A DNA stretch of 64,000 nt, from IMG/VR virus record IMGVR_UViG_3300037071_003688; one strand, 5' to 3'. Every line of letters starts with the position of its first letter. Position 1 is the stretch's first letter. This document shows positions 9,106 through 62,740 of this stretch, in pieces. The position numbers and the translations under genes were made by a program. The notes beneath the pieces were generated by a model. The model worked only from the letters and a program-made list of their open reading frames with translations, ran no database searches and had not been told where the DNA came from. The DNA comes from a virus.

Positions 9106-9491
9106 ATGGAAGCCACCACGCCGTATCCAGAGTCCGAGAAGATGCACGCCGTCCACGAGACATCGCAAGTGATCGGCGAGTTCATCGAGTGGCTGCCAAC
9201 ACGCGGCAAGTTCATCGGCACGTGGCGCACCCTCGTGGACTGCCCGGGCGGCGGAGCGTTCTCGAACTGGACGTGCGAGAGTGGCGTCAAGGTCCATGAT
9301 CGCACCGGCGAGGACGGCGGCACTGCCCGGTCTGCGACGGCAAGGGCGTGGTCGAGGCCACGAATCCCATCCCCGAAGTGGACTACGTCGACATCAACAA
9401 GCTGCTCGCCGAGTTCTTCAACATCGACCTGGCGAAGATCGACACCGAACGCCGAGCCATGCTCGACGCGATGCGGGCGGCGAACCCGTGA
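9106..9491 (+). pseudogene. frameshifted Zn-ribbon-containing phage protein (possible sequencing error)
   Basis: MEATTPYPESEK..SQVIGEFIEWL... continues sensibly in the -1 frame from 9324 as CPVCDGKG...INKLLAEFFNIDLAKIDTERRAML...*. Confidence 0.55.
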
Positions 9492-11882: not shown

Positions 11883-11942
11883 CCGCCGTCCACGGTTCTC
11901 ATCGAGTTCTACCCAAACCCCATAGACAGGAAACCACCCACC

Positions 11943-22053: not shown

Positions 22054-22061
22054 AATGGTGC

Positions 22062-25000
22062 ATGGGAACCACCACGACGAACGTGTACGCCAAGGACTTC
22101 AAGCGCGGTGACCGGCTCGCGTCCGGCTCCACCATCCTCGGCTACCTGAGACTCGCCAAGGGCGGCATCGCCTACATGGTCGAGACCCCCGGCGGCGCCC
22201 GCCGCGAACTCGTCTTCGACGGCCGTCGCAAGTACGCCATCGTCATCGAGACCGACTGAAAGGAAACCACCACATGGTCAAACCCAAGACATTCATCGTG
22301 ACTCTGCGAGGCACCGAGATCACCGACTTCGGGTTCCGCCTCCGGATCGACCTGACCGGCAAGCTCCCCGGCCCCACCAAGTTCGAGACCACGATCACGA
22401 CCCCCGACGAACTCGACGCAGCGATCGACGCCATCGTCGCCGCCGCCGACCGCCCGGAAGGCACCGAAACCTTCCCGGTCAACGGGTTCTACATCTCGGT
22501 CGACCCGAAGGCCGGTCGCTGGCCCGCCGGGTTCAAGGCCCGCTTCGACAAGTCCCTGACCCGGCGCTTCGAGACCATCGCCGCCTAGTCAAGACTGTTG
22601 ACAAACCGCAGACAACCTGCGCATAATACTGGTGTGAGGAAGGGTCCTCACAGGAAAGGAAACCACCACCATGTTGTTCACCGTTGGCTCCCGCTGGCGG
22701 GAGCGGTCGGGCAACGAGTTCGTCGTTGTCGGCAGGCTCGACAACGGCGCCCTCAAGGTCCGGTTCGACGGCGGCTGGACCCTGTTGCTGGCACCGTCCG
22801 AGCGGTTGAAGTGGACGGCGGTCGTCACCAACGACGAGTTCGCGGTGGCGGCATGAGCGTGGACGAACTCTGGATGCTCGTGCTCGCACGACGCGCCGAA
22901 ACCCCGACACCCACCGAGGAGGATGAATGACCGTGTACGGCCTCTACCGAGGCAACCCGAACGAGATCGGCATGATCGCCCCGAGCAAGGCTGCCGCCGC
23001 CACCATGCGAGCGATGTTCGGCCCCGCCTGGAAGGCCCGCAAGCTGACCGCCGCCGAGGCCAACGACCCGTGGGTCCTGGCCGAGATCGCAACGCTGACC
23101 GCCGAGGGAGTGTGGAACGCATGAACCGGGCCACCTACAACCGGGTGAGCGTCGGCGGCGACAACTCCAATGCCGATCTCATGAACGCCGCCCGCTACGC
23201 CATCCTCGCCAACCTCAAGACCGCCAAGGCCCGCTGGGTGATCGGCACGGCGCTCGACCTGTTCAGCCCCGAGAACGTCTACATGGACGGCGAACTGTTC
23301 TCCTACGGGAGCGAACGATGAGAGCACCGATCCCCCGCTACCACGACGGCTGGGACAACGGTGTCGCCTGGGTGCGCTCCGAACTCGGCAAGCGTGACCG
23401 GCCCGGCCGCTGGGCGCGAGCCGCACTCGCCAAGCTGCGGGCGGCGACGCCGTCCGGTTTGCGCGACGACTTCGGTTGGGGCTTCAAGGACGGCGCCGCG
23501 ACCACGCTCGCCAACCACCTCTACACCATCGACAACCTGGAAGGAACCGAATGACCACCCGAGAAAGCAAGACCCCACCGAGGGTCGCCACCGTCACCGC
23601 CCGCGCCAAAGACGTCGAAGTCAGCGGCACCGACCGGGCGCCGATCGTGATACCCGCCACCGCCGACAAGAAACACCCCGAACGTCTCGCCGCCGCGCTG
23701 CGAGGCTTCCTCGCTGACGCTTTCGTCGCCGGGTACGACAGGGCGAACGCCGACATGGCGATGATGGACGGGAACGACGAATGAACGTCAAGATCGAGTT
23801 CAACGTCGAGCCGACCGATCGGACACGGCTCGCCATCGCCCGGCTCACCGGCCGACGCGCCGAAGGGCTGGCGTCACGTGACACCGTCAAGCTGTTCTTC
23901 AAGACGTACGGGCTGAACGGCTACGAGTTGATCGCCGAGGAGATCGGCCGCATCAACGAGGAAGCTGCCCGGATCGCCAAGTCTCTCGCCACGGAAGGGG
24001 CATCATGACAACCACCACCCGCACCCGAGTCACCAAGCGCGAGGCCGAGCGCACGCTCAACGCCGTGAAGCGCATGTTCCGGGCGTACATCTCCGAGGGC
24101 TACGGTCCCGAACTTCGCAAGGACTGGGACTGGGGCTGGACCACCGAGGCCCATTACGACTGGGCGATCGTCTGGGAAGACGGCTCGCCCTACGACTGGA
24201 CGTACCTGTTCCCCGGCGGCGGCATAGACGAGGAGTTCGGCTTCCGCCACACCGAGGTCGAACTGCCCGAGGGTGTCTGGACCGAGGCGATCACCGGTTG
24301 GGCGCTCGCCATCTACCCGAAGGACTGGTGACCGATGAACGCTGAACTCCGCTCCCTCATCCGGCTCCGCGACGCTGCGTTGCGGGATCTCGACCGGGCC
24401 GACCGGATCGACAAGGGGAGCCGCTGGCTCACGCACCCGGACGAGATGCGCAGCCTGTCAGCCCGCTTCCACGAACTCGACGCCCGGGTCGAGGCGATGG
24501 GCGAGTCACCATGATCCTGTTCGGCTGGATCGTGGAAGCACTCACGATCGACTTCCTCATCTTCGATCTCATCCACCACCTACGAAAGGCACACCACTGA
24601 TGGACCCAGAGGCAACACTTGCGATCGTCAACGACGAAGCCGCCACATCGGATGAGCGTGACTTCGCTGCGCTCGACCTGCTGGTCTGGCTCGCCAAGGG
24701 TGGCGTCCTGCCCCCGATGGAGGGGCTGCGCCCCAAGGCTGATCTGATCGAACGCTGCGAGAGTCGAGTGATCGGCGCCATCGAGGGCTACGAGGAACGC
24801 TGATGCCCGAGCATGACCTGCCACCCGCCTGGGACATGGAACACGAGTTGTACCTCCGAGCCTGCGAAGGCGTCGACTGGAACTACTCGGAGACCTTCAC
24901 CGACCCGTGGGTCGACTACTGCGACTACTGCGAACGCGAGGGCCACACCTTCCGCTCCTGCCCCGCCCGCGACGACGACCCCGACTACTCCGAGGAGGAT

Positions 25001-33160: not shown

Positions 33161-33193
33161 CCTCTTGTAACCACCACACAAGAGGAGACCACC

Positions 33194-33522: not shown

Positions 33523-34536
33523 GATGGTGGACATGGAGACCACCGGACTGTGAAGCTCAAGCGGATGTCGACCTCGACGTACGAGACCGCCGAGTACGAG
33601 GGCTTCTACGAGGGGCGTCGAGTGCGGATCACCCGGCTCACCGACCCCAACGATGACGGCGGCTCCCCCGAGACCCGCTGGGACGGCTTCGTGTGGGACG
33701 AGGCAGGCAGAGGCCACTGGTCGCTCGTCGCCGAGTGCTATCGCACGATGACCGAAGCGGTGTACGAGACGCAACGCTGGATCAAGAAAGCGGTCGGGCT
33801 GACATGATGCTCGGCGAACGCGAGCGGCTCGTCCGCAAGGCCCGCACCGCCCACGTCTGCGACTTGGGCCACGAGTGCGTGATCGCCCCCGGCGACTCGT
33901 ACTTCATCGGCGTCACCCTGCCCGGCTCGGCGAGCTACGCCGAGGGCGACGGGAACTACGAGATCATCGACTGGCCGTTCACCGTGATGAAAGCCTGCGT
34001 CGAGCACTACAACATGGCAATGGCAGGACAACTGTGACCCACGATCTCGGATCTATGACACCCTCCGAGGCGAAGGCCACCGGCCTGCTGGTCGACTGGA
34101 AGGCGCTCAACGCCAAGCCACCCCCGCCCGGCCCGATGCACGACGAGGAAGGAAACCCATTGGAAACCACCACCCCCTGGCGCGAGATCGACGGCAAGCT
34201 GCTTGCCGCCGGACTCCACGAAGCGTTCGGCACGACCGGCGAGGTCGAGACCACCGACATCAACCCGGAGTTCGTAGAGACCCTCGCCGAGTACCTCGAT
34301 GAGGCCGATCTCATGTGCGACCATTCGGTCGGGATCTGTTGCTGCTCGGCGCGCTACACCCTCGAAGCACTCAACCTGTGGCTCGCCGGTCGTGTGTTCT
34401 GCTCGGCCTGCGGCGGCGAGGGGATCGGCGACATGCGCGAGGAACACATCGTGGATGAGGCGCTCGGGATCGACTTCACCGATCACATCGTGCTGCCGTG
34501 CTCCACGTGCGAGGGCAAGGGCACGGTGCCGTCACC

Positions 34537-41674: not shown

Positions 41675-41713
41675 ATCAAGATAGTTGACAAACCGTAGAC
41701 CAGATGAGACAAT
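41675..41713 (+). promoter_or_regulatory. class I promoter
   Basis: TTGACA-17-GACAAT; ATGGAAACCACCAC start 6 nt downstream. Confidence 0.75.
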
Positions 41714-41719
41714 CAAGGC

Positions 41720-44700
41720 ATGGAAACCACCACGTACGAAACCTGGACGAAGGAAGGTCGTAGCTTCGTCCTCGTCCCTGTCGACATGGCTGCGCGAGAG
41801 GCCGCGTTTCTCGCTGAACTGAGCGACGAAGACGCCGCCATGTGGGAGCCGTGGTACCCGGACTTCCCGGGTGAGCGTGCCCCTGTCGCCTACGAACTCC
41901 ACGACGAGGCCGGTGAGGTCGCCTGGGAGCGCACCATCCGCCCGCTCGATCCGTGGTCGGCGTACGACGCAGTGTCGGACGTCCTGCTCCGCGAGGGCTT
42001 CACCCCGCCGCCCGGCCCCGACCGCGGCTTCTGCGAACACGGCATGTCAGCCGATCTGTGCGAAGGCCCGAACCACTACGGCTACGACGACGAGGATCGG
42101 TTCTAGATGACCGGCGATCTCATCACACTCCCCGTCGCCCCGGCGTACGAGGCGATCATGAACGCCCTCACCGAGGAGGAACTGTTCGCGCTGGTCGAAG
42201 CACTCTCGCTCGTCTCAACCGCGTCGGCTGAGAACGATCGGATGCGCACCGCCATCATCCGCGAACTCTCGATCCGAGAGGCATACATCCGCGGCGCCAA
42301 GCGCCGCCATCCGAGCGGAGGCTCCACCTGATGCAAGAGAAGATCGCCAAGATCACCGGCACGTTCCTCGGGTGGGAGGACCACGGGATCCTGACCGCCA
42401 TGCTCGACCTCGACTACGGCGGCGGAGGCTGCCAGTCGACGCCCGGTCATTTCCTCGACCGCTCAACGGGCCACGACGGCGACTACCTGTTCAGCCGTGA
42501 GGGCACCGCCTACGGGATGACGTTCGTCGCCCGACTGATCAAGGCGTGCGGCGTGCGACGGTGGGAGGACATCAAGGGCCGCACCATCATCGCTCTCATC
42601 GAGGATGACCGTGTCGTCGGGATCAAGCCGCTCCCAACCGAACGCGGCGAGCCGTTCATGTTCGCCGACCTGCGCGCCAGGTTCGAGGCGGAGGCCCGAT
42701 GACCCACGGCATCTGGGGCATGGCGTGCTTCAACGGCCTGTCGGCCGATCAGCAACGATTCGTGGTCGAGGAGGGCTACCTGCCGTTCGGCTACAAGCCC
42801 GAAGGCACCTGCAAGCGCGGCGCCGAGATCGGCATCGAAACCTGGGACGACACCAAGCCCGGCCCCCGCTTCTACTGCCGACCATGCGCGATCGCGTTCC
42901 TCGAAGCCGGACGCTGCGACTGCCACGTCGGCTCAGGCGAAGGCGCCTGGCGCGAGACCCACGACTACGACTGCGCGACGCTGCGCACACTGAGGAGCTT
43001 CGCATGATCACACTCACCACCTCGAAGCCGACATACCGATCGAAGGTCGTCGCCGAAGTCGACTTCCCCGTGCTCGCCTACCTTGAGCACGAGACCGCCG
43101 ACCGACGCCGCTTGCGCCGCCACAAGGGCGACATAGCGGTGCGGCTCCCGGCCCCGATCATGACCGACTACGGCCGAGGCCCGAAGCGTCCCGGTGTCTC
43201 CGAGATCGGCAAGTACCGGATGATCGGCGCGCTGCTCACCGTCACCATCGGCGAGGACTCGATGACCGGCACCGGCGTCCTCTACAAGACGCTCCCCGAG
43301 GTCGTCCACTTCTGGCCCGCCATCGACCTCGACCGGACCACGGTCAAGGGCTACAAGAACGGCCGCTCCGACATCCTCGACTGGACGCTCGTCGCGGTCA
43401 CGCTGCACGACTACCCCCCGGCCTGGCCCGACATCCCACGCGCCCGCATCACCCGGCAAATGAGTTGACAGACCGGCGACGGGCGGTGTAAAGTTAAGAC
43501 GTGAGGGGGAGGACCCCTCGGAAAGGAAACCACCATGACAGATGCCGAAATGGCCGAGATGGATGCCTTCGTGGCCGATCTCGGATACCGCAACGAGGTG
43601 CGAGCAGCGATGCTCGCCCACATCGGCCGGATCAACATCCTGTCGATCTCCGGTGGCCGCATCGAGTGGCTCGATGACTTCACCGTCAAGCTGCCGATCA
43701 GTAACGGCTACGCAGTCGAGGTCGAGTACGACCGAGGCTGGGACCTGTACACCGTGCGCCGGACCTTCACCCGCCGCCCGAAGTGGACGGTCGACAACCC
43801 GAACCCGGAGCCGGTCCGCAAGGTCAAGGGCGAAGTCACGATGGTGTACGCCGAGGATCTCGGCGAGACCGCCTGGCGGGCACACGCCTTCCGCAGCTAC
43901 GAGTTCGGCGAGTGATCGTGGGCCAGTTCTTCGTTGCCGTCATCGAGGATTACACCGAGGAACTGGTCGACCGCCACGGGCCGTTCAAGACCCGGTACGA
44001 GGCCGAACGCCGCGCTGACGCACTCCTCGAACACTACGTCGAGAAGCTGACACGCTCCGTCGCTGTCGAGGTCCAGGATGAGACCGGGAACCCGGTCGAG
44101 AGCGAATGGCCACCGCAGTAGTGGCGCGCGTCCGCAACTTCGGCTGGTGGTGCCACCAGGAAGTCTCCGCCGTCATCGACGCTTGGACCGTCAAAGGCCC
44201 GAAGCCGAAGATCCACGACGACGCTGTCGCCCGGCTCCGCAAGGACTGGCCGCGGCTCGCCGACACACTCGACGCGCTCGACGCCGCCGAGGCGAGGGGC
44301 TGCCCGCAATGCCCGGCCGAGTTCCCGCAATGCCCGGCCGAGTTCCTCGAATGCCACCTGCCGTTCGGACACGACGGGCCGCACCGTCACGAATACGACG
44401 ACCGCGGCACGCTCGAATGGGAGCGCCAGCGGTGAACGACTGGCCCGACGAACTCGAAGCCGCGGCCACCGCGCATTGCGCAGTGATCCGTGAACGGCTG
44501 ATCGCCGTGCATCGCTCGATGGACGATTGGGCGGTCGACTTCCTCGCCGCTCTCGACGCCCACACCCTTGGAAAGAGTGTTGACAAACCGTAGACAATCT
44601 GCGCATACTGTAGATGGACATGGAAACCACCACCGCGACCCTCGGATTCGTACTGGATGCCTTCGCCAGCCGTCACCTGCGTGACTGGTTCTGGCTCGGG

Positions 44701-47655
44701 ATGTGCCCCAACGACTGGGATTACGAGGATCTCGAAGCCTTCGAGGCGTGGGTCGCCGAGAACGCCGACGATCTCTACGACGACATGGGCTGGACCGCTC
44801 TGGTCCGGCTCTACGAGGCGACACGATGAGCTACTACCGGGAGACCCGCAACCGGATGACCGGCACGACCATCGTCACCGGCCGCGGCGACGACTACCGG
44901 ATCGACCTGTCGGTCGACGGCGACGGCCCCTGGTTCAACATCTGCGCCGACCACGGCGCCATCATCTCGCACACGACGCTCGCCCTCGCCCGCTACTTCG
45001 CTCCCGCACCCGACAACTGGTGCGACGACTGCCGCGACCTACTGGAAGGAAAGCCATGACCGCCCCTCTCGACACCTGGTGCTTCACCGCACTCACGCCG
45101 CTCTGCGACAACTGCGGCGAACGCCACCTCGACGCCCGCGTCGATCTCAACGACCCGGACGATTGCGACCCGGGCTGCGATTGGGACATGCTCGCCGGGA
45201 CCGCCCCGATGCGCTGCCCCTCCTGCTCGAACCTCAACCCGCACTGCGGCGACGAGTTCCACGAGCCACGCCATCCGGCCGACAACCCCCGCTTTCTCAC
45301 GTCCGACCGGATCGGATTCTCCGTTCCCGCCTGAAAGGAAACCACCATGCCCGCCTACCGGATCTCCACCAACACGGTCCGCCCGCTCGAAGACGCCCCC
45401 CGGGGCAGCTACGAATGGCTCCCGTTCGAGGACGACAAGAACGTCCTGACCGTCACCATCACCTCGGCCGCTGACCTGCGCGCGAAGATCGCCGCCGCCG
45501 TCCTCGTCCACTTCGACCTGTTCCCCGACGCCACCGCCTGCAAGCCGTTCGCCGACAAGCTGCGCGGCGAGCGTCACGTGTCGGGCGGCAAGGCTGCCTG
45601 CAACGCCTCGATGGTCCTGCGGGAGACTGTCTCTGCATGATCCCCGATGACGTGCTGGCGTGCGAGTCGATCGTCCAGAGCCTCCGGAACGGCGACCTGC
45701 GCGCGGCACGTCGCGGGATGTTGGTGACCTCCCGCTTCGGGACACGCTCCCGGGTCGAGGTCGCCCACCTCGCGCTCGAAGTCGCCGCCGCCATGATCCG
45801 ATCCGGCAGCGACCCGTACATCAGCCTGAGAACGGTCCAGGCCGCGCTCAAGCCCGAGGAACCGGACCCGGCATGATCGACCATCCCGACTCGACCGGCG
45901 TCGCCGTCCGGGACCAACTCCTGTTCGACGTGTTCTGCGCCGCTGTGCCGGAAGGGATCAGCCTGTGGGCGCACGGCTACCGCCGCGCCGTCGACAAGTA
46001 CCACTTCGGCGCCCACATCGTGGACCTCGACCTGCGTCACCATCGCATCACCCGCACCACGATGGTCCACGGCATGAACGCCGCCGCCTACACGTGGCGC
46101 ACCAAGATCCCGTGGTCGACCGAGTACCCGCCGACCCTGTTCCAGAGCGAAGCAGGCTGGGAGTTCGACGCCGCCGACGCCGACCTCGTCGTCCAACTCG
46201 GCCTGTTCCACGACCTGCCCTACTCGACCGATAACCTGCTCCGCCGCGGCGTCATCCGACGTGGCAAGATACTTGACAGACTCCCGACAGGATGAGATAA
46301 TCAAGGTATGGAGACCACCACTCTCACGTGTAAGTGCTTCGTAGAACGCAACGGCTACTGGACCGGTCGTCGCTGCAAGTTCAAGGCGAAGTTCATCGTC
46401 ACCACCAGCGACGGCCCCAAGCCGATGTGCGGCATCCACAAGAACCGGATGGTCCGCCGCGGCTGGCACAACAGCGTCGTCGTCGTCCCGCTCGATGAGG
46501 CCAAGCCATGACCGTCGAGTGGATGGCAACCAATCCCCGCGAGGCGTTCGACACGCGTCTCGCCATGCGACGCAACGTCGACCACCTCGTCCGTCAACGG
46601 GTGCGCGGCTACAAGGGCCGCATCGCCTGCAAGATCGACGGCCGCTGGGGCGCGATCGAAGACGCCTGCATCGGCCACGTCCACAACAAGCGCAGCGCCG
46701 CCCACGCCTGCGCCGCCCGCGAAGCCCGGGCACGCAACCGGATGGTCGGCTGATGGCCGGGAACGGGACGGGCTACCCCAACCACTTCGAGTGCTCGAAG
46801 GCCCGGCTGATCTACTACGGCGACCGGTCGAGCACCGGCGAACCAGTCGCTCGCACTAGCCGTGAACGCGCCGCCCACGTGATCACGTTGACCGGCCGCA
46901 CCAAGCCGACACCACGCAACGGCAAGGGCCATCCGCGCAAGTCGTGGACGACGCGCGAGTACCGGTGCTCGTGCGGTCACGTCGGCTGGTCGACGCACAT
47001 CGACCTCGAACGGCTCGAAGCGGCCCGTGAACGCTGACCGCCTGATCGTGCTGGCCGAGACGCTCGAACGCGACGCCGAACTGCTCGACCATGACCCCGC
47101 CGCGCTTTACATCGTGCCGACCGAGCATTTGCCCGTGGAGATCATCCGTCTGACTCGCAGCCGCTTCAAGGCGCGACTCGGGATCCACGCCTCGATCCGT
47201 ATGCGCGAGGTCGCCGCCGAGCTACGCGCGATGGCAGCCGTGACGGATCGGTAGGTGAGTGGGTGAGTTCAGATGTGAAACTCGAACGCCTCATCCCACT
47301 CGTCGTCCCGTTGAAAGGCGACGGCGAACAGACCTGCATCATCTGCGGCCATCTGCTGCGCCAGTCGCGCCTGATCCACATCATCGACGGCGGCGCCGCG
47401 GTCGCCCATCCCGACTACCGAGGCATACCATCGCCTGCGATGACCTGCTGCGTGTGCGGAGGCCCACACCATCCCGACGACTGCGCGCGCGCCCAGGAGT
47501 ACGTCCGCCAGTGCCTCGAAGCCCGGACCAGCCCCCCGCCGCCGAGGCCGGTGCCGTGGTGGAATCCCGACACCGGGATCTTCGAGGTCGAGATCACCAC
47601 GGCGACCCGGTGGGACAGTTGGCGGTTCGGTCGACGCGTGCAACAGCACGGCTAG
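41720..47655 (+). other. early-type accessory region with about 20 small hypothetical genes and class I promoters at 43465, 44580 and 46273
   Basis: TTGACA-18-TAAAGT, TTGACA-18-CATACT, TTGACA-17-GATAAT; genes start METTT or follow GAAAGGAAACCACC. Confidence 0.6.
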
Positions 47656-47660
47656 CGGAA

Positions 47661-47682
47661 TGTCGCCGCTGTCGCGTATGCT
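47661..47682 (+). promoter_or_regulatory. class II promoter (TGTCGCC-N9-TANNNT)
   Basis: Same spacing at 6002, 7327, 18705, 21463, 25837, 29538, 35886 and 37109. Confidence 0.65.
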
Positions 47683-47689
47683 GACGGTT

Positions 47690-47793
47690 GGATCCCGGTC
47701 GGCCCCCAACGCTGGTTGTGATCCTTCGGGTGAGGGTTGTCAGGCGTGTTTCCGTGGTGGTTTCCCGCCGACGACCCTCACCCGCTTCGCGTT
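47690..47793 (+). ncRNA. candidate trans-acting antisense sRNA
   Basis: Follows a class II promoter. Hairpin GGATC...GATCC, then a 19-bp stem (47727-47746/47766-47784, one bulge) whose loop contains GTGGTGGTTTCC, then a CTTCGCGTT tail. Confidence 0.65.
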
Positions 47794-47909
47794 CAGCCCG
47801 CCGCCTTGCGTGGCGCACTTCACATGGTGCTAACATCCCGCCACTCACGCGGCAACGGCCCGGACCTCGCCCCGCCGCACAAACCGCCCGGACGGAAGGG
47901 TCAAAACGG

Positions 47910-48602
47910 ATGCAAGCAGCGGTCCTCGAACGTGTCCTCGACTGGCGACCATTCCACGACGAACGGTCACTCGATCATCCAGTCCGGGACCGGCTCCCGG
48001 ACCACTGTCGCCGCCGCCTGCGAATGTGGCAGGCCGGACGCCAACTCGACCAAGGGTTCCACAGTGGCAGCGTCGGCTACGGCTGGACGACAGAGTTGCA
48101 AGCGGAACCATCGACGTTCAACAGCACCCTCCCCGCCGAGCACTTCGCGACGCACCTGTACCGCCAGGCGCAACAGGTCGATGACTTCCCCGGCGAGTCG
48201 TACCTCGGCACGAGCGTGCTCGCCGCCGCCAAGGCGCTGCACTCGGGCGGGTACATCGCGTCGTACTCGTGGGCGTTCACCATTGACGACGTGATCGACG
48301 CCGTGGTCGAGATCGGCCCGGTCGTGATCGGCATCCCGTGGTTCGAGTCGATGTCGACCACCTCCACATCGGGCATGGTCGAGGTCAACGGCCGCATCGT
48401 CGGCGGGCACTGCGTCACCATCACCGGCTACGACCCGCAGCTACAACTCCCCGACCGGATAATGCCCGACGAGGCGCTCCGCTGGCGGAACTCGTGGGGC
48501 GACAGCTACGGCGACCAAGGCGACGGCTACATCCGCGCCGAAGACCTCGAACACCTCCTGTGGGGCCGCTACGGCAGCGAGGCGTGCGTACCGATCGGTT
48601 GA
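47910..48602 (+). CDS. papain-like (peptidase C1) protein with Ser at the catalytic Cys position
   Basis: LDQG...SVGYGW, GTSV, GPVVIGIPW, GGHCVTITGYD, RNSWGDSYGDQGDGYI. Confidence 0.8.
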   Translation: MQAAVLERVLDWRPFHDERSLDHPVRDRLPDHCRRRLRMWQAGRQLDQGFHSGSVGYGWTTELQAEPSTFNSTLPAEHFATHLYRQAQQVDDFPGESYLGTSVLAAAKALHSGGYIASYSWAFTIDDVIDAVVEIGPVVIGIPWFESMSTTSTSGMVEVNGRIVGGHCVTITGYDPQLQLPDRIMPDEALRWRNSWGDSYGDQGDGYIRAEDLEHLLWGRYGSEACVPIG

Positions 48603-48830
48603 CTTGCTAACACTGGTCTAGGCGACTAGGGTTACTGGTATGGAAACCACCACGATCACCAGAACGCATCACCTGGCGTTCCGCCTGTCCCTCGCTCTCC
48701 CCGTCTGCGGGTCGAATGACGGGGGCGGACTCCTCCTCGACCCCGACCGGGTGACCTGTGAAGACTGCCGCCGGATCTGCGGCCTCGGCCCGAAGCCGCT
48801 GAGTTGGGACGAGGCGTACGACCTGGTTCG

Positions 48831-50034: not shown

Positions 50035-50064
50035 TTGACTCCCGATCGGTCCAAGGTTTACGGT
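50035..50064 (+). promoter_or_regulatory. promoter for the RNA array/Ro60 operon
   Basis: TTGACT-18-TACGGT, followed by a 5' hairpin at 50073-50119. Confidence 0.55.
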
Positions 50065-50140
50065 GTCCCCTCGTCCGGTCAGGCAGGTGACCTCCGCGGG
50101 GATCTGAGTCTGGCCGGACAACTTGACAACTTAAGATCTC

Positions 50141-50221
50141 GTGTGCCCGGTGCGTAGGTGACGGTTACTTCTCCCTTTACATGGAAACCAAGCTCCGTTG
50201 CCGTCTGGTTCTCGGGCACAC
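50141..50221 (+). ncRNA. Y-RNA-like unit 1
   Basis: Closing stem GTGTGCCCG/CGGGCACAC; GGTGCGTAGGTGACGGTTACTTC...CCGTTGCCGTCTGGTTCTC scaffold. Confidence 0.7.
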
Positions 50222-50232
50222 TGCACCATCGT

Positions 50233-50387
50233 TTCCGGCTGGTGCGCAGATGAGGGTTCCTTCGCATATGGAGCGGGTAGTCACAGGTTCGAGTCCTGTT
50301 CACGCCACCAGGCCCGCAAGGGTCGGTGTGATAGCTCAGTTGGCAGAGCGCCAAACAGTCCCCTTGTTGATCGGTTCTCAGCCGGAA
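50233..50387 (+). ncRNA. Y-RNA-like unit 2 (YrlA-like, circularly permuted tRNA domain)
   Basis: Stem TTCCGGCTG/CAGCCGGAA. T-arm ACAGG-TTCGAGT-CCTGT, TCACGCC-ACCA, GCAA linker hairpin, GGTGTGA, D-arm TAGCTCAGTTGGCAGAGC. Confidence 0.85.
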
Positions 50388-50394
50388 CACACCC

Positions 50395-50512
50395 TTTCCG
50401 GGTGGTGCGCTGATGATGGCTACTTCGCAAGTTCGATTCTTGTCATCCCCACCACATGGGGATGTGGGCATGGCGCCCGCACTGCCTTCGCCGCCTGGTT
50501 CTCACCCGGAAA
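50395..50512 (+). ncRNA. Y-RNA-like unit 3 (permuted tRNA domain)
   Basis: Stem TTTCCGGGTG/CACCCGGAAA. T-arm GCAAG-TTCGATT-CTTGT, CATCCCC-ACCA-CAT-GGGGATG acceptor hairpin, short D-like arm. Confidence 0.8.
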
Positions 50513-50519
50513 CGATCTC

Positions 50520-50619
50520 TCTGGTCGGTGCGCAGATGGGAGTTACTTCAACGGATGAAACGGCTTCGGCCGTCGTGGCTCGAAACCACAAGCCTCCCGC
50601 CGCCAGGTTCTCGACCAGA
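50520..50619 (+). ncRNA. Y-RNA-like unit 4
   Basis: Stem TCTGGTCG/CGACCAGA; scaffold motifs; cargo ACGGC-TTCG-GCCGT and GTGG-CTCGAAA-CCAC. Confidence 0.75.
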
Positions 50620-50628
50620 AAACTCGAC

Positions 50629-50749
50629 CCTGCCCGGTGCGCAGATGACGGATACTTCCTTCACACATGCAGAAGGTCCCCGGAGCGGCGGTAACCAATC
50701 CGTGCCAGCTTGGGAACCAGTCCCCGTTGTCGCTCGGTTCTCGGGCAGG
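50629..50749 (+). ncRNA. Y-RNA-like unit 5
   Basis: Stem CCTGCCCG/CGGGCAGG; GGTGCGCAGATGACGGATACTTC...CCGTTGTCGCTCGGTTCTC. Confidence 0.75.
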
Positions 50750-50760
50750 ACTTCCGCATC

Positions 50761-50853
50761 TGCGGTGCGATGACAGAGGTTCCTTCTCACCAGGGCGCAA
50801 GCCCACGAATGCCGGAACGAGAGACCGGCGCCCTCCGTCGCCTGGTTCTCGCA
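50761..50853 (+). ncRNA. Y-RNA-like unit 6
   Basis: Short stem TGCG/CGCA; GGTGCGATGACAGAGGTTCCTTC...CCTCCGTCGCCTGGTTCTC. Confidence 0.65.
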
Positions 50854-50907
50854 ACCAACCAATGACCCCAACGACCCAATGACCCAACCCTGAAAGGGGC
50901 AACGACC

Positions 50908-53071: not shown

Positions 53072-53130
53072 CGTGGCGGTTTCCTTCCCGTGGGAGGCGT
53101 CTCCTCCCACATCAACATCGTAACACGGGT

Positions 53131-53170
53131 GTCAAGTCTGTTGACAAACCGTGGACGATCTGCGCATAAT
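53131..53170 (+). promoter_or_regulatory. class I promoter with perfect palindrome
   Basis: GTCAAGTCTGTTGACA-18-CATAAT. Confidence 0.85.
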
Positions 53171-53634
53171 GATGGTGGACATGGAAACCACCACCAACTA
53201 CATCACCGTCTTCCCGGCGACGAACAATCGGCGGGGCTGGATGGTCGCCACCCGCGACGGCGCGAACATCCGCCACGTCCGTTTGGAGACGGCTTCGATC
53301 CACGACCCCGAGGCCGCACGAGCCGAGGCAGCCAAGCTGTTCCCCGGCAAGGCGATCTACATGGCCGGTGACACGGTCAAGCCGTGGGAGGCGGCTGCTT
53401 GATGCCACGAACCCTCACCGCCCGCTACACCGGGACCTGCCGCCGCTGCGACGGCCCGATCACCCCGGGCGACACCATCCTGTTCCTCGGCAAGCGCAAC
53501 ACCGTCCACGAGAACTGCGCCGAGCGGGCCGAGTCGGGCGTGATCGAGATCTACTTCCCCTCGACCGGCAACCGGATCACCCGCAACCGGCGGGGCACCT
53601 GCGAAGACGCCCCGGCGTGTGGATGCTGCACCTT

Positions 53635-54060: not shown

Positions 54061-54100
54061 GTCAACTCTGTTGACAAACCGTGGACATTCTGCGCATAAT
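54061..54100 (+). promoter_or_regulatory. class I promoter with perfect palindrome
   Basis: GTCAACTCTGTTGACA-18-CATAAT. Confidence 0.85.
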
Positions 54101-55396: not shown

Positions 55397-55436
55397 GTGA
55401 AATGTGTTGACAAACCCGGGACGACCTGGGCATAAT
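55397..55436 (+). promoter_or_regulatory. class I promoter
   Basis: TTGACA-18-CATAAT. Confidence 0.85.
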
Positions 55437-55446
55437 GTAGTTGGAC

Positions 55447-56718
55447 ATGGAAACCACCACGATGACCACCAACCTGAGCTTCACTCCCATCGAGTCGACG
55501 CTCACCGGCGTGAGCATCCACCTCGCCGACTACCTGAACGTCAAGCTCGCCAAGATCAACAAGCGGCTCGCCAAGATCGGCGCTCCCGCCGCCACGTTGA
55601 CGTTCGGCCCGGAAGTCGAGCGCACCGAGACCGACGAGTTCACCGGTTTCAAGCGCACCTTCCGCGAGTTCGAGTTCGTCACGGTCACCGGCTTCGAGGC
55701 CAAGTTCGCCGGTTGGACCGGCGTCGCCGTCCTCGACTGGCGGCTCGACCCGCACGAGGCATTGGTCGCCAAGTTCCCCGGCGAGGAAGACACCGCCGTT
55801 AGCGAGGTGTTCGTCCGGGAGGGCGCCTGGTGCGACCACTGCAACAAGATCCGCTCCCGCAACACCACGGTCCTGTTCCGCCACGAGGACGGCACCGAGA
55901 TGCGGGTCGGCACTTCCTGCATCCTCGACTTCATCGGAGTCGACCCCTCCAACGTCACGTGGCTCGCCACCCCGATGTTCGGCGGCGCCGACGACGAGGA
56001 GGAGTTCCGGACCGGCGGTGGCCGCTTCGAGGTCTCGCCCGCCGAGTTCCTCGCCGCAGCCGCCGAGGCGACTCGCCTGTTCGGGTTCGTCAAGTCCCGC
56101 CCCGACACCGCATACGACACGCCGACCCGGTCGCACGCCGCGACGCTCTGCTACCGCCGCCTCAACGACTACGAGAAGAAACTGTACGCCGAGGTTGACC
56201 ACGGCCGGGGCGCCGCCGAGGCCGACAAGATCCTCGCCTGGGTCGATGAGGTCAACGACTTCTCCGACTTCATGCGCTCCGCCAAGCTCGCCTGCCGGGC
56301 CGATCGGGTCATCGACCGCACCGAGGGTCTGCTGGCGGCGCTGCCCTTCTCCTACATGAAGGCGATGGGCAAGCTCGCCGAGCGCAAGGCAGCCGCCGCC
56401 GCCAAGCCCACCGACTTCCTCGGAACGGTCGGCGAGAAGCTGACGGTCGAGGGCACCGTGACCTTCAAGATGGCGATGGAGCCTTACGCCTACAACGGGC
56501 CGACGCCCTATCGACTGACCATCGTCACCGACGACGGCTACACGCTCACGACGAAGGGTTCCGGCAACACCCTCTGGGAGGCCGAGGTTGGCGACCGGAT
56601 CACCTGGACCGGCAAGGTCATCGAGCTTGAGGATCACGAGAAGTGGGGCAAGCGGACCGAGTGCCGGATGGTCAAGATCAAGATCCTCGTCCCCGCCGCC
56701 GAGGCCACCGACGAATGA
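55447..56718 (+). CDS. large early phage protein with CxHC...VGxxC zinc motif and OB-fold-like C-terminus
   Basis: CDHCNKIRSRN...VGTSC; C-terminal FLGTVGEKL...TGKV...H. Confidence 0.7.
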   Translation: METTTMTTNLSFTPIESTLTGVSIHLADYLNVKLAKINKRLAKIGAPAATLTFGPEVERTETDEFTGFKRTFREFEFVTVTGFEAKFAGWTGVAVLDWRLDPHEALVAKFPGEEDTAVSEVFVREGAWCDHCNKIRSRNTTVLFRHEDGTEMRVGTSCILDFIGVDPSNVTWLATPMFGGADDEEEFRTGGGRFEVSPAEFLAAAAEATRLFGFVKSRPDTAYDTPTRSHAATLCYRRLNDYEKKLYAEVDHGRGAAEADKILAWVDEVNDFSDFMRSAKLACRADRVIDRTEGLLAALPFSYMKAMGKLAERKAAAAAKPTDFLGTVGEKLTVEGTVTFKMAMEPYAYNGPTPYRLTIVTDDGYTLTTKGSGNTLWEAEVGDRITWTGKVIELEDHEKWGKRTECRMVKIKILVPAAEATDE

Positions 56719-56732
56719 GAAAGGAAACCACC

Positions 56733-59700
56733 ATGACGACCGACGCCTGGACCGAAGCCCACCGCTTCCCGTTCAACACCGACGAGAACTGGTCCGAAAC
56801 CGAGGAAGGTCTGCTCACCATCCACGACATGAACCCGGGTCTGATCGCCCCCGGGATCGCCGCCCGAGTGATCTACGAACTGCGCCTCGACGTCGCCCGC
56901 CTCAACAGCGAGGCCATCGAGGTCACCGCCAAGTACCGGAGGGAACTCGCCCTCCGCCTGGCAGCCGAAACCGAACTGGCGCTGATCAAGACCGCCCTGC
57001 GAGACCTCACCGCATGAGAAAGGAAACCACCACGATGACCTGGAACTACCGCAAGTACGGCGGGCTGGTCACCTACACCACCGACATCAACACCTTCGCT
57101 TGTGTTGTCGAAGGCTGGGATGACGGACCGTGGAAGTGGTACGTCTACGAAGATCCGATGACCCACCACTACGGCGGGACGCCCGAGTCGGCCGGTGAGG
57201 AAGCCACCATCAAGGAAGCGATGGCCGCGGCCGAGAGCTACGCCACGGCGGTGACACGATGAGCGGCGAGATCACGATCACGATCGTGCCCGACTCCCCG
57301 TGCCCCGACTGCGGCGCCGCCTGGGGTCACCCGGACAAGGCGCTTGACTTCCCGAACCGCCCGAAGGTCGGCGACGCCGATGGGACCTGGTGGTGGAAGT
57401 GCTACAACCCCGCCTGCGCCCGGGACTACTACCTGCCGCTGCTCTAACCGAAAGGAAACCACCATGACCACCCACCGACTCGTGATCCTGAGCTACGAGG
57501 ATCCCACCTACCGCCACGTGATCGCCGAACGCGAGACCGAGGCGAGCCTGGCCCGCATCTCGGCCGGGGTCAACATCAACCTCAACCACGACGAGTTCTT
57601 CACCGAGATCGAGGAGGTCGACGGCGATGAGTGACACCCGCTGCCTGGAAGCCGGGCCGGACTGCCGGGGCCGGGTCGAGATGTGGACGACGGACGGCCT
57701 GCGCTACTGGCCGCGCTGCGACTTCCACGGCGAACGCCGCTTGGAGCGGTACGAGAACTCGCTCGAACGCTACGCCGATAGCCCGCTGGCGCCCGACTGG
57801 TTCGATCCGACCATCGCCGGTGAACGCTGGGACGACGACTACTGATGCTCAAGACTCCGTCAACAGAGTTGCCAACCTCGGACCATCGAGGTAAGGTTAA
57901 GTGCAAGAGAGGAGAGGAATGACCACGACATACACCCGCCGCTACTTCCTCGAAATACGCGGCTCCCCCGAGGTGGAAGTCACCGAGGCCGAGTTCGTCG
58001 CGGCTGAACGAGCGAACGGCATCAACCCCAGCTACGGCGAGGATCCGGACCGGCCCGTCACCGGCGGCTTCGGCAATGCTCGCATCCGTGCCCGCACGGA
58101 GACCATCTACAACTAGGAAAGGAAACCACCACATGGACACACTCGGATTCGGACTGCGCAACGCAGTCCCCAACACCGCCGAAGCGGCATGGGGCGCACG
58201 CTTCATCATCTACGCCGATGGCGGAGTCGACTTCGTTCCCAACCGGACCGACGTCGTCGGCACCACTGAGAGCAAGGCGGCACTGCTCGCACTGCTCAAC
58301 GAGAAGCTGCCGAAGCGGGCACTGATCGACATCATCAGCGCCAAGATCAAGGCGTACGAGATCTCGACACGAGAACCCAACGAGGTCGTCCTGTTCGACG
58401 CTGACGGACTCAAGGTCGTCGGCAACTCGAACGGCTCGCACGGCTACTTCTACGTCGCCGCCTTCCCCACCGCGAGCGTCGCATGAGCGCACTCCCTGTC
58501 GCACTTGACGACGGCCGATCGACCGTGGCACTGCGGATCCTGTCACACCGTGCCCGCAGGAACCTGACCCGGCTCGTGCCCGACCTGGACAACTGGTGCT
58601 CGATGCGCGACGGCCACGTGTTCCTCATGGCCAGCGACGATCTCGACGCCGCGCTGGACGCCATGCCGCGCTACTGCCGGGGTTCGATCCGGCCGCTCAA
58701 GCGCCTCCCATCCGGTGACGGTTGGGGCCGGGCATGGCGATCGGTGACGACATGAGGCTCAAGCCGTTCGCGGTGACGCTGACCTACTTCGTCGGCAACA
58801 TGGGCACGTCGTCCACCATCGACGTGTGGACGGCGACGGCGAAGGCGGCGCGCGAGTGCGGCGAGTCGTACGCCCGCGAGGAAGGCATCCCCGACGCCAC
58901 GATCACGGTCACCCCGCACCGTGAATACTCTTGACAACCCTAGTCCGGATGGGAGATAATACAGACGTGACAGAAACCACCACCATCTACCGGATCGCGG
59001 AGGGCACCGAGACCGCGGACGGCGTCAAGCCCGTCTGCGTGATGTTCGCACTCTGCGACAACGACGCCACCTTGCTGATCCCCCACCCGGTCCTCGACTG
59101 GGTGTTCTCGTGCGAACGCTGCGCCCGCAAGCTGGGCTACGACGTCAACGACAACCTGCTCACCGCCGACGTCAGCTTCGACTGAAAGGAAGCCACCATG
59201 ACCACCTCCACCCCCGCCGACATCAACCGGCTCGCCACCCTGCTCGAACGAATCGAGATCCTCGCCAACAAGATCGACATGCCATTCGAGACCGACGTCG
59301 GAGCGAAGTACATCCGAGTGGTCGACACGAGCTACAGCCGCTCGGTCCACGCCTTCGTTGATCGCGAGACCGGCGACCTGTTGAAGGCTGGCGGCTGGAA
59401 AGCCCCCGCCAAGCGTAAGGGCGGCCCGGCGACTGTCGGCAGCCTGCTCAACGACGACGACTTCGCCACCATCCTCGCCCGCGCCGACCGCTACGGCGGC
59501 TACCTCTACAAGCGTCCCTGACCGAAAGGAAACCACCACATGACCACCGACGATGACATGGTGTTCGACAGCCGATACGCGCTCTACGGGTACGCCAGGG
59601 CCGAGGCCGCTGACGCCCTCATTGACGAGTTCATCGCCACCCTCACCACCGAGGATCTCGACGGGATCCACAACGCTGTGAGCGATGAAGCCTGGGCGCT

Positions 59701-60801
59701 GGTCGACCGCTGCTCGACGTGGTGCGTCGCCCGCGGGATCGACATCAACGCCCTCGGGTTCTCCGACACGGCGTCGCGCGAGTGCTTCCTCGACGCCGCC
59801 TTCGAGCGCAACGCCGAGGCGCCGCTCACCGCGATCGAGGTGGCCGAGACGCTGATCAACGGCAACATCTCGACGGCGCGCGAAGCGATCGTGCTGAACC
59901 ACACCCCGCACGAGGTCGCCGTGTTCACCATCGACGTCGTGCTCGCCCTCGCCGAACTGAGCGGCGAGGCGGACGACGGAGGCGCCTTCGCCGAGGCGCT
60001 CGGGCGGGTCCGCAGGTGCGTGAACCGTGGCTGAGATCTGCGAGGCCACCGGCGGCGAGGCTTCCATCAGACGATGGCGATGCTGTTCGCGATGGGCGCG
60101 AGGCGCTCGGTCTCGTCAAGTGCCTGCTGCCCCGCGACATGTGGGACGCGCTCCCGGGCGGGGTCCCGTACTACGTCATCCTCGACAAGTCAACTCTCTT
60201 GACGAACCCGGGACGAGGCGAGTAGTGTTTCAAGAAATGAAAGGGAAACCACCATGAAACTGATCCTCAAGATCCCTGACGGCGTCGACCCGGTGCTGGC
60301 GATGGAAATGACCATCGACCGGATGGAGGCGCTCTCCGATGTCGGTCACTCGCCTGCGCCCGGCCCATCCCGATTCGATCTCGACTTCGGCATCGACCAC
60401 GGCCTCGGCTGGTGGAAGATCGAACCATGAGCGGCGTCGAACGCTTCGAGTACCCGCAGTCGCCCGGCGACTGCTACATCGAACTCGGCGAAGTGATCGG
60501 CGCCGGACTCGCCGACGACGACCGGCTGATCCTCGACGCTGACGGCGCCTCGAACTACATCGCCAACCTCATCAGCGGCTTCACCGGCGACGAGGTCGAC
60601 GGCGACGGCGACCCCTGGTCGATCGTCTGCGAACACCTCCACGGCCTGCTCCACAACCTGAGCGAGGCTCTGCACTACACGAACCCGGACGCGCCCTACA
60701 GCGATCTGGGCGACGCTGGTGTTCTCGTCCGCGAGTACCTCCGCGACGAGTACGGCCTCGAAGTCAACCCACCCGCCAAGCCCACCCCGCAACAGGAGTA
60801 A
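56733..60801 (+). other. early-type cluster of small genes (56733-57017, 57464-57634, 58133-58486, 59198-59521, 59540-60034, 60254-60430 etc.) with class I promoters at 57869, 58931 and 60199
   Basis: Repeated GAAAGGAAACCACC leaders and TTGACA/TTGCCA/TTGACG promoters. Confidence 0.6.
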
Positions 60802-62040: not shown

Positions 62041-62740
62041 TAAATATATGGGAACCACCACTGCTAGGTCAGCCCGATCAACCAACAACCATCCGAAGCC
62101 GATCACGGGCCGGGTCACCGAGTTCCGGATCGGCCCCTACCGAGTGCTCGAAGCGGGCGATGAGGCCGACGTCCACTTCCCCGAGAAGCGCAAGTCCTAC
62201 CGTCGAGCGAAGTTCGTCTACGCCGTGGGCAACACGCTGGTGTTCGTCAAGCCTGACACCGGCGGACTGGTCGGCGTGCTGCCCGACAAGGTCGGCACCA
62301 TCCACCGTCTGAATCGTTTGAGAGGCTCCGAATGACCACCATCCGATTGAAGATCACCTACGAGTGGTCCGGTCTCGAAGAACTCTGCCTCCCCCAAGCC
62401 GACAAGGTGATGGCCGCTCTGATGGCGACCGATGACCGCGAGCCACGAGCGTTGAACCGACCGAAGGTGTCGATGGACGTGAAGCTGATGTCGCACCGCT
62501 ACGAAGGCCCGGACCGCCCGTACGAACAACCGGTCGAGCACGAATGAACCTCACCCTGACCGCCGAGCAGAACGCCGACCGGGAACGGCCGACTTGTGCG
62601 ATCAAACTTCCGTCGCACGTCGGCACGCCCGCCACATGGGCAGACGCCAATCACCCGCAGTGGTACGTATGCGACCGCCACCGCCGCCAGTACGAGGAAC
62701 GAGCGGACGAGTTCGGCCCGTTCGCCTGGGAACCAATCTG

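What the first reader, a model, noticed from the sequence alone, without database searches (positions are those of the whole stretch)
47661..47793. Candidate master antisense sRNA whose loop is complementary to the start region of about 24 phage genes
Seen: behind a class II promoter lies a non-coding two-hairpin element. The second stem (CGGGTGAGGGTTGTC-a-GGCG / CGCC-GACGACCCTCACCCG) displays the loop TGTTTCCGTGGTGGTTTCC. GTGGTGGTTTCC (47754-47765) is the exact reverse complement of GGAAACCACCAC, whose core GGAAACCACC sits at gene starts at 11929, 22262, 22658, 41722, 43525, 44622, 45337, 48642, 53183, 55449, 56723, 57022, 57454, 58121, 59528 and 60244. The eight single-base variants I found (GGAAGCC 9108, 59188; GGGAACC 22064, 62050; GGAGACC 33184, 33535, 46310; GGAAACCGCC on the minus strand at 53084-53073) are all A-to-G changes opposite U, which G-U wobble tolerates. 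Two weaker sites (58972, about 54325) do not follow this rule. Inference: a later-expressed sRNA base-pairs over the RBS/start of the early regulon and switches off its translation in one step. I do not know of a described phage system of this breadth.
Basis: partly seen in the sequence, partly recalled or inferred. Interest (0 to 1): 0.92.

Follow-up and report, generated by a model that had tools for sequence, protein, structure and literature searches.

The report
Phage RNA hairpin mirroring gene-start tag
An uncultured soil actinobacterial phage carries a conserved two-hairpin RNA of about 100 bases whose exposed loop is the exact complement of a private 10-12-base tag on the start of about 26 of its genes, so one small RNA probably damps translation of that gene set, but expression has not been shown.

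Summary
GGAAACCACC occurs 18 times in the window against 0.19 expected. Seventeen copies are on the + strand, all at gene starts. The only minus-strand copy is the 19-nt loop of a strong hairpin at 47727-47784, in the 254-bp gap before a papain-like peptidase gene.

The element is a real structured RNA. It folds with z = -4.5. All seven related lineages I could fetch (peptidase 59-83% identical) keep the two hairpins. Their stems vary and co-vary, G-U pairs form only on the + strand, and 18 loop bases are invariant. All relatives also keep the start tag.

Two analogies support loop-to-start pairing:
- An unrelated Arthrobacter-type siphophage family has the same loop after its major-tail gene. 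Across 18 loop variants, the loop and the next gene's ribosome-binding region co-vary.
- In Cluster K mycobacteriophage Adephagia, the single reverse-oriented start-associated sequence (SAS) also lies in a hairpin loop. Some Cluster K phages keep SAS without it.

Not shown: transcription, timing, action in trans, or repression. No RNA data exist, and hybridisation energy does not single out the targets. This scan noted the same layout before on other phage DNA.

The parts
47263..47655 (+). upstream gene, 130-aa Cys-rich protein, stop TAG 47653-47655
   Evidence: homologous C-termini precede the element in all relatives
47677..47682 (+). -10-like hexamer TATGCT (TATGAT or TAAGAT in relatives), 7 nt before hairpin 1; candidate promoter of the RNA
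   Evidence: conserved in 8 of 8 sequences; no good -35; function inferred
47690..47724 (+). hairpin 1, variable stem with a conserved C-rich loop (GCCCCAAC type)
   Evidence: stem fully replaced yet still paired in L136, L327 and L333; loop lost by a 9-nt deletion in L329
47727..47784 (+). hairpin 2: 15 bp, bulged A, 4 bp
   Evidence: lower 9 bp invariant, upper stem differs and stays paired in relatives; invariant U-G pair on the + strand
47747..47765 (+). 19-nt loop; 47754-47765 is the exact complement of the start tag plus AC
   Evidence: 18 loop bases invariant in 8 sequences
47785..47794 (+). conserved tail (UUCGCGU type), no U-tract; presumed 3' end region
   Evidence: terminator scan finds no canonical terminator here
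47828..47836 (+). extended -10 (TGC TAACAT) of the downstream peptidase gene
   Evidence: conserved in window, L137, L329/L330 and L331
47910..48602 (+). papain-like (Peptidase_C1) gene; its SD region ACGGAAG is complementary to the 5' half of the loop
   Evidence: the SD complementarity is my reading and is not statistically distinguishable from chance
11929..11938 (+). start tag, exact; ATG 4 nt after
22262..22271 (+). start tag, exact; ATG 2 nt after
22658..22667 (+). start tag, exact; ATG 3 nt after
34162..34171 (+). start tag, exact; TTG overlaps its first G; coding frame follows
41722..41731 (+). start tag, exact; ATG overlaps; promoter-proximal
43525..43534 (+). start tag, exact; ATG directly after
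44622..44631 (+). start tag, exact; ATG overlaps; promoter-proximal
45337..45346 (+). start tag, exact; ATG directly after
48642..48651 (+). start tag, exact; ATG overlaps
53183..53192 (+). start tag, exact; ATG overlaps; promoter-proximal
55449..55458 (+). start tag, exact; ATG overlaps and a second ATG 3 nt after
56723..56732 (+). start tag, exact; ATG directly after
57022..57031 (+). start tag, exact; ATG 3 nt after
57454..57463 (+). start tag, exact; ATG directly after
58121..58130 (+). start tag, exact; ATG 2 nt after
59528..59537 (+). start tag, exact; ATG 2 nt after
60244..60253 (+). start tag, exact; ATG directly after
9108..9117 (+). start tag variant (A5 to G); ATG overlaps; promoter-proximal
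22064..22073 (+). start tag variant (A3 to G); ATG overlaps; promoter-proximal
33184..33193 (+). start tag variant (A4 to G); followed by ATC at the head of the coding frame
33535..33544 (+). start tag variant (A4 to G); ATG overlaps; promoter-proximal
46310..46319 (+). start tag variant (A4 to G); ATG overlaps; promoter-proximal
57199..57208 (+). start tag variant (A5 to G) just after a TGA stop; start codon and frame unclear
58972..58981 (+). start tag variant (G1 to A); GTG two codons upstream; promoter-proximal
59188..59197 (+). start tag variant (A5 to G); ATG directly after
62050..62059 (+). start tag variant (A3 to G); ATG overlaps
53075..53084 (-). start tag variant (A8 to G) of a minus-strand gene; ATG 3 nt after

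Best explanation
The element is a + strand, non-coding RNA of about 100 nt with two hairpins, probably made from its own -10-like promoter. The 19-nt apical loop of hairpin 2 presents a G/U-rich 12-13-mer. This 12-13-mer base-pairs with the phage's private C/A-rich start tag (GGAAACCACC, usually followed by AC).

The tag lies either between the Shine-Dalgarno bases and the ATG, or directly behind the ATG of promoter-proximal, nearly leaderless genes. Pairing would therefore cover the ribosome's landing site on about 26 phage mRNAs and lower their translation together.

Shown: the motif and its placement, the RNA structure and its strand, the invariance of the loop, and covariation of hairpin loop with RBS in an analogous cis system.

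Inferred: that the RNA is made, that it acts in trans, that the effect is repression, and any timing.
For: 1. Complementarity cannot be chance. There are 18 copies against 0.19 expected, and the only reverse copy sits in a hairpin loop.
2. The element is a selected RNA structure. z = -4.48. Eight sequences from seven lineages all fold into the same two hairpins, although 25% of alignment columns differ. Seven predicted pairs change on both sides.
3. The strand is +. One U-G pair is invariant and others are variable on the + strand. The + strand fold is more stable than the minus in 7 of 8 sequences. All neighbouring genes are on the + strand.
4. Eighteen loop bases are invariant while the flanking peptidase is only 59-83% identical. 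Every relative with enough DNA keeps the tag at gene starts, for example 9 copies in 20.7 kb of L137.
5. An unrelated Arthrobacter-type siphophage family has the same 17-nt loop on a different stem, right after the major-tail gene. The complement lies 9-55 nt downstream, in the next gene's RBS.
6. Across 18 distinct loops of that family, each loop has a Watson-Crick partner of 6-12 nt downstream (mean 8.3). Swapped loci give a mean of 4.8, with 7 or more in 9%. Loop and RBS therefore co-vary.
7. In Adephagia, the single reverse SAS lies in the 10-nt loop of the second of two hairpins (z = -6.7). It sits in the gp92-gp93 gap where late transcription starts (PMC11373665).
8. The tag is not a host RBS habit. 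Twenty sampled copies in an Arthrobacter genome are not in the phage's start-tag context (no gaaa-tag-ATG form; one has an ATG 3 nt after, probably chance).
Against: - There is no expression evidence of any kind.
- The promoter is only a -10-like hexamer with no -35, and the hairpin lacks a U-tract. A discrete small RNA is therefore not established; it could be a 3' or 5' untranslated region.
- No relative has a changed tag, so loop-to-tag covariation in this lineage cannot be tested.
- RNAduplex energies for targets (-19 to -30 kcal/mol) overlap the background of this GC-rich genome, whose 1st percentile is -24.8.
- In the analogues the partner is in cis (family 2), or the loop is dispensable: SirPhilip and DarthP keep 14-15 SAS without a matching loop.
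- The invariant 5' half of the loop is not needed for pairing with the tag and is unexplained.
Confidence: 0.5

Rival explanations
1. The element acts in cis. The hairpins belong to the 3' end of the upstream operon or the 5' leader of the peptidase mRNA. They act locally for stability, attenuation, or pairing with the peptidase SD region, as the same loop does next to its partner in the siphophage family. The many tag copies elsewhere would not be regulated by it.
For: In family 2 the partner always lies within 55 nt downstream. Hairpin 2 has no U-tract, so read-through into the peptidase gene is plausible. The 5' half of the loop is complementary to 6-7 nt of the peptidase SD region in 5 of 7 lineages.
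Against: No copy of the tag lies between the hairpin and the peptidase ATG. A conserved extended -10 sits between them, which implies a separate mRNA start. A 6-7-nt match is within the chance range of the cross-locus control. A purely local role does not explain why the 12-mer matching 26 distant starts is invariant.
Confidence: 0.2
2. The hairpin is a protein-binding or ribosome-binding RNA element. Its apical part may fold further: a G-C pair, three U-U pairs, two C-G pairs and a GUGGU pentaloop. A host or phage factor recognises it, and the match to the start tag reflects a shared factor rather than RNA-RNA pairing.
For: The loop is internally symmetric and ViennaRNA pairs its two halves. 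The 5' half is invariant although it is not needed for tag pairing. The same loop occurs on unrelated stems in two phage families.
Against: A factor that binds the tag would not bind its complement. In family 2, loops of quite different sequence and shape all keep a complementary downstream partner, so complementarity is the conserved property, not loop shape.
Confidence: 0.12
3. The minus strand is the active one. A leftward RNA would display the tag itself in a loop, as a decoy for whatever recognises the tag.
For: The hairpin also folds on the minus strand. One lineage (L330) folds slightly better on the minus strand.
Against: The U-G pairs become A-C mismatches on the minus strand. Seven of 8 sequences fold better on the + strand. 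No start codon follows the minus-strand tag. All flanking genes and the conserved -10 are on the + strand. Family 2 hairpins lie inside + strand structural operons.
Confidence: 0.06
4. The motif is a DNA site for a repressor, like the stoperators of Cluster A mycobacteriophages. The hairpin copy would then be one more site in reverse orientation.
For: The sites are asymmetric, oriented with transcription and placed in short gaps between genes, as stoperators are (my knowledge of Brown et al. 1997, not re-read here).
Against: Spacing to the start codon is fixed at 0-5 nt, or the ATG overlaps the motif. This points to RNA and translation. Covariation of the surrounding stems shows that an RNA fold is selected around the reverse copy.
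Confidence: 0.05

Closest known systems
Start-associated sequences (SAS) of Cluster K mycobacteriophages (Pope et al. 2011, PMC3203893), including their single reverse-oriented copy
   Same: Both are asymmetric 10-13-bp motifs present in 11-19 or more copies in one orientation, within a few nt of start codons, with conservation reaching beyond the Shine-Dalgarno bases. Both have one reverse copy that is not at a gene start. I found that in Adephagia this reverse copy also lies in the loop of the second of two hairpins in a non-coding gap. The hairpin is conserved in 131 Cluster K records.
   Different: The sequence is unrelated: GGGATAGGAGCCC there against GGAAACCACC here. Here the tag also occurs behind the ATG of promoter-proximal genes. 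SAS function is still stated as unknown (PMC11373665, PMC12699233), and none of the three Cluster K papers I read (PMC3203893, PMC11373665, PMC12699233) links the reverse copy to an RNA hairpin. Some Cluster K phages keep SAS without the matching loop.
GcvB small RNA of enterobacteria (e.g. PMC4474525, PMC9299463)
   Same: One RNA uses a G/U-rich unpaired region to pair with C/A-rich elements at or near the ribosome-binding sites of many mRNAs and represses them as a set.
   Different: GcvB is chromosomal, Hfq-dependent and has a linear seed. It has no sequence or structural relation to this element and gave no Rfam hit here. Here the seed is a hairpin loop, and the targets carry a near-identical tag rather than loose matches.
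P1/P7 c4 antisense RNA (Rfam C4)
   Same: It is a phage-encoded structured RNA whose loops pair with sites covering a ribosome-binding site. The targets lie on the same transcript, as in the siphophage (family 2) arrangement.
   Different: c4 has two target sites in one operon, not about 26 genes. There is no Rfam match here.
T4 RegA translational repressor
   Same: A single phage factor shuts down translation of many early mRNAs by occupying their initiation regions.
   Different: RegA is a protein that recognises loosely similar sites. Here the candidate factor is an RNA and the sites are near-identical.

Membership tests
Trans-acting base-pairing small RNA with many targets | A discrete transcript with its own promoter and 3' end | tested here: inconclusive
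   A -10-like hexamer is conserved in 8 of 8 sequences and a strong hairpin lies at the 3' side. There is no -35, no U-tract and no RNA data.
Trans-acting base-pairing small RNA with many targets | An unpaired seed complementary to the translation-initiation regions of its targets | tested here: met
   A 12-nt loop segment is the exact complement of 17 start sites, and about 9 more pair with one G-U or mismatch.
Trans-acting base-pairing small RNA with many targets | The seed is more conserved than the rest of the RNA | tested here: met
   Eighteen loop bases are invariant while stems and hairpin 1 vary.
Trans-acting base-pairing small RNA with many targets | Seed and targets co-vary among relatives | tested here: inconclusive
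   All seven lineages keep both unchanged. Covariation is seen only in the analogous cis system of another phage family.
Trans-acting base-pairing small RNA with many targets | Target expression changes when the RNA is present | not testable with these tools
   The phage is uncultured and no RNA holder is listed.
Cluster K start-associated sequences (SAS) | An asymmetric repeat in one orientation, within a few nt of start codons | tested here: met
Cluster K start-associated sequences (SAS) | Consensus GGGATAGGAGCCC in Cluster K genomes | tested here: not met
   The motif differs, and there is no DNA similarity to any isolated phage. This is an analogue, not a member.
Intrinsic (rho-independent) terminator | A G+C-rich stem followed by a U-tract | tested here: not met
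   The stem is present, but the tail holds only scattered U, and the scan reports no terminator here.
Any Rfam family (including C4 and Y RNA) | A covariance-model hit at the gathering score | tested here: not met
   There is no hit in the window at gathering score. Only chance-level hits with E above 1 occur on 47600-47920.
Stoperator (Cluster A mycobacteriophage repressor sites) | A double-stranded DNA site bound by the phage repressor | not testable with these tools
   No repressor is identified. The fixed spacing to start codons argues for an RNA-level role.

The most novel reading that the evidence does not exclude
Private start tags plus a single hairpin RNA displaying the anti-tag may be a general phage device for gating translation of a whole gene set. 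It would have arisen independently in this soil jumbo actinophage, in Cluster K mycobacteriophages (the reverse SAS in the Adephagia hairpin at the late-transcription start) and, as a cis version, behind the major-tail gene of Arthrobacter-type siphophages. If so, it would give the first mechanism for start-associated sequences, unexplained since 2011.
Probability: 0.35. Interest if true: 0.9.

Novelty: new variant of a known kind. Interest (0 to 1): 0.78.

Why it matters
Antisense RNAs that block ribosome-binding sites are well known. A phage that marks about 26 genes with one near-identical tag and carries one RNA displaying the anti-tag has not been described in the literature I could search.

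It offers a concrete, testable partner for start-associated sequences, whose role is still called unknown in 2024-2025 papers. The Adephagia hairpin makes the idea testable in a cultured system with existing genetics and RNA-seq.

The co-varying hairpin-loop/RBS pair behind major-tail genes is a second, possibly new, cis-regulatory RNA.

Tried and rejected
- Isolated phages: no DNA match for the region or the element.
- Rfam: nothing.
- Exact-motif scans of IMG/VR found no contig with many tag copies.
- The distant peptidase homologues that I inspected (69 IMG/VR loci; P0016, P0025, P0028) belong to unrelated phages without tag or hairpin.
- A loop-independent scan of JGI metagenomes for the hairpin scaffold gave only two unrelated bacterial hits. 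No relative with a different loop was found.
- RNAduplex energies were dropped as evidence because the GC-rich background reaches similar values.
- A small ORF on either strand was rejected. The ATG at 47660 is not conserved, indels break the frames, and no start codon follows the minus-strand tag.
- The idea that the tag is a general Arthrobacter RBS was rejected.
- The idea that the loop mimics a 16S rRNA segment rested only on sequences recalled from memory. No convincing match was seen and it was not pursued.
- ATC as a start codon after the tag holds for 33184 only. At 57199 the ATC is out of the coding frame, and 20913 looks internal to a gene.

Full report
**What the window is.** The window is 65.7% G+C and has no nucleotide match among isolated phages. 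It carries a terminase gene (17140-18702), a Ro60/TROVE gene (50908-52521) and many small + strand ORFs. The peptidase protein next to the finding occurs on a contig of 147,498 bp. The DNA is held only by soil metagenome runs. It therefore appears to be part of a large uncultured actinobacterial phage genome. No whole genome is held for it.

**The observation.** GGAAACCACC occurs 18 times against 0.19 expected. The 17 + strand copies fall into two layouts.
- Inside operons, the tag is preceded by gaaa, which gives a GAAAGGA match to the anti-Shine-Dalgarno sequence. An ATG follows 0-5 nt later.
- About 10 nt behind SigA-like promoters (TTGACA-18-CATAAT, 9 found against 2.1 expected), the ATG overlaps the first G. 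The gene then begins ATG GAA ACC ACC on a nearly leaderless mRNA.

The same ten bases are thus kept whether they lie before or behind the start codon. The RNA sequence itself must be what matters, not an amino-acid or Shine-Dalgarno requirement alone. With one mismatch there are 13 more hits against 4.2 hits (exact copies included) expected. Nine or ten of these sit at starts, including one minus-strand gene at 53075-53084. Copies of the tag in two Arthrobacter genomes are not at starts, so it is a private phage tag.

**The element.** The only reverse copy lies in the 254-bp gap between a 130-aa Cys-rich gene (stop at 47655) and a papain-like peptidase gene (ATG at 47910). From 47689 to 47794 the + strand folds into two hairpins with -53.7 kcal/mol and z = -4.48. 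Hairpin 2 spans 47727-47784 and has a 19-nt loop. The last 12 loop bases (47754-47765) are the exact complement of the tag plus AC. No Rfam family matches.

**Relatives.** Peptidase homologues of 59-83% identity led to seven further lineages on soil contigs: L136, L137, L327/328, L329/330, L331/332 and L333.
- Every one has the two-hairpin element directly upstream of the peptidase gene.
- Hairpin 1 stems are replaced yet remain paired. The upper stem of hairpin 2 exists in four versions that all pair. Seven predicted pairs change on both sides.
- One U-G pair is invariant and others vary between C-G and U-G. These would be A-C mismatches on the minus strand. The + strand fold is the more stable in 7 of 8 sequences.
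- Eighteen loop bases never change.
- A -10-like hexamer 7-12 nt before hairpin 1 is kept in all sequences. An extended -10 for the peptidase gene follows the element in most.
- All relatives with enough DNA keep the tag at gene starts.

What can be said is that loop and tag are co-conserved, while everything around the loop drifts.

**A second family with the same loop.** An exact scan for 17 loop bases found about 20 IMG/VR contigs of about 61% G+C and two Arthrobacter prophages. In these, a quite different G+C-rich stem carries the same loop. The hairpin follows the stop codon of a 181-aa gene that precedes a small gene and an 874-aa ORF. By size and gene order I read these as the major-tail gene, the tail chaperone gene and the tape-measure gene; none of the three was checked against a protein family library. 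Downstream lie two complements of the loop, one 9-11 nt after the hairpin and one in the RBS of the next gene.

I widened the family through the tail protein and obtained 18 distinct loops. Each loop has its own Watson-Crick partner of 6-12 nt downstream (mean 8.3), often in the RBS spacer. Loops paired with the downstream regions of other loci give a mean of 4.8, with 7 or more in 9%. Examples:
- A GGCGAUG loop with a CAUCGCC spacer.
- A GUGGCGGUU loop with AACCGCCAU.
- A UGGUGACUCC loop with GGAGUCAUCA.

This is clear covariation. It shows that pairing between a hairpin loop and an RBS is a selected RNA feature in phages of this host group. It acts in cis there, which is also the main caveat for a trans reading here.

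**Cluster K mycobacteriophages.** Pope et al. (PMC3203893) described SAS. [quoted passage not shown] Papers from 2024 and 2025 still call the role unknown (PMC11373665, PMC12699233).

In Adephagia I found 16 forward copies and one reverse copy. The reverse copy forms the 10-nt loop of the second of two strong hairpins (z = -6.7) in the 430-bp gp92-gp93 gap. PMC11373665 reports that late transcription starts there. The hairpin is conserved in 131 Cluster K records. The loop is kept in Anaya, Validus, Peanam, Amelie and Yunkel11. It is degenerate in DarthP and replaced in SirPhilip, although both keep 14-15 SAS. The layout therefore recurs, but the anti-tag loop is not indispensable for a start tag.

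**Mechanism.** The most economical reading is an RNA whose loop pairs with the tag and occludes ribosome binding on about 26 mRNAs. The G/U-rich seed and C/A-rich targets recall GcvB. C/A-rich sequences around start codons are known translation enhancers, including on leaderless mRNAs; I state this from my own knowledge of Martin-Farmer and Janssen 1999, which I did not re-read. Masking the tag would therefore be expected to lower initiation. Geometrically, the 12-bp helix would stack on the hairpin stem, with the 7-nt 5' half of the loop as the bridge, as in a pseudoknot.

**Weak points.**
- There is no transcript evidence, no -35 and no U-tract.
- Timing is unknown.
- Energies do not discriminate targets from background.
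- The invariant 5' half of the loop is unexplained. It may pair with the peptidase SD region, offer a second GGAAAC register, or close a small apical stem with U-U pairs.
- The A-to-G bias of variants (10 of 11) fits wobble tolerance. It equally fits GC pressure and better SD matches, since no C-to-U change is seen.

**Verdict.** Functional loop-to-tag pairing is likely; global trans repression is plausible but unproven. Earlier notes of this scan describe the same layout in several other uncultured phages. They are unchecked AI notes, not independent evidence, but they suggest the pattern is recurrent.

Noticed in passing
L111:8690-8800 (also L378-L422, L222, L235): Behind the gene I read as the major-tail gene of Arthrobacter-type siphophages lies a strong hairpin. 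Its loop co-varies with a site 2-55 nt downstream, often the RBS spacer of the following small gene, which I read as the tail-chaperone gene. There are 18 loop variants; own matches average 8.3 nt against 4.8 in swapped controls. This could be a large pseudoknot or translational attenuator that sets the tail-to-chaperone ratio.
   Followed up: partly
L334:38615-38715 (Adephagia JF704105, 58,614-58,714): The single reverse-oriented SAS of Adephagia forms the loop of the second of two strong hairpins, in the gap where late transcription starts. The hairpin is conserved in 131 Cluster K records. The loop is lost in SirPhilip and degenerate in DarthP.
   Followed up: partly
window 9068-9105, 22023-22061, 33495-33532, 41685-41719, 44580-44619, 53141-53180, 54071-54100, 55407-55446: A repeated promoter cassette (GTTGACAAACCGTGGAC ... 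TGCGCATAAT) places the ATG about 10 nt after the -10. This implies nearly leaderless mRNAs that begin Met-Glu-Thr-Thr.
   Followed up: partly
window 33184-33196: The tag variant is followed by ATC at the head of a high-GC3 frame. There is no canonical start codon between the upstream stop and the ATC, so this may be a non-AUG start.
   Followed up: partly
window 57196-57447: A tag variant follows a TGA stop, but the high-GC3 frame that begins there has no nearby canonical start, and the ATC/ATG after the tag are in another frame. The start, or a recoding event, is unresolved.
   Followed up: no
window 22630-22657, 43495-43524, 54101-54125: Short G+C-rich hairpins sit between the -10 and the Shine-Dalgarno bases of some promoter-proximal genes. 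They may be 5' stabilisers.
   Followed up: no
window 50035-52521: A Ro60/TROVE gene (Pfam E = 4e-19; 35-38% identical to Ro-like proteins of Streptomyces, Arthrobacter and Gordonia phages) follows about 870 bp of non-coding DNA. First-stage notes call this DNA a Y-RNA array. No Rfam family reaches the gathering score there.
   Followed up: partly
L329:3000-3030 versus L330:275-315: Two near-identical contigs differ by a 9-nt deletion that removes the conserved C-rich loop of hairpin 1 and leaves hairpin 2 intact.
   Followed up: no
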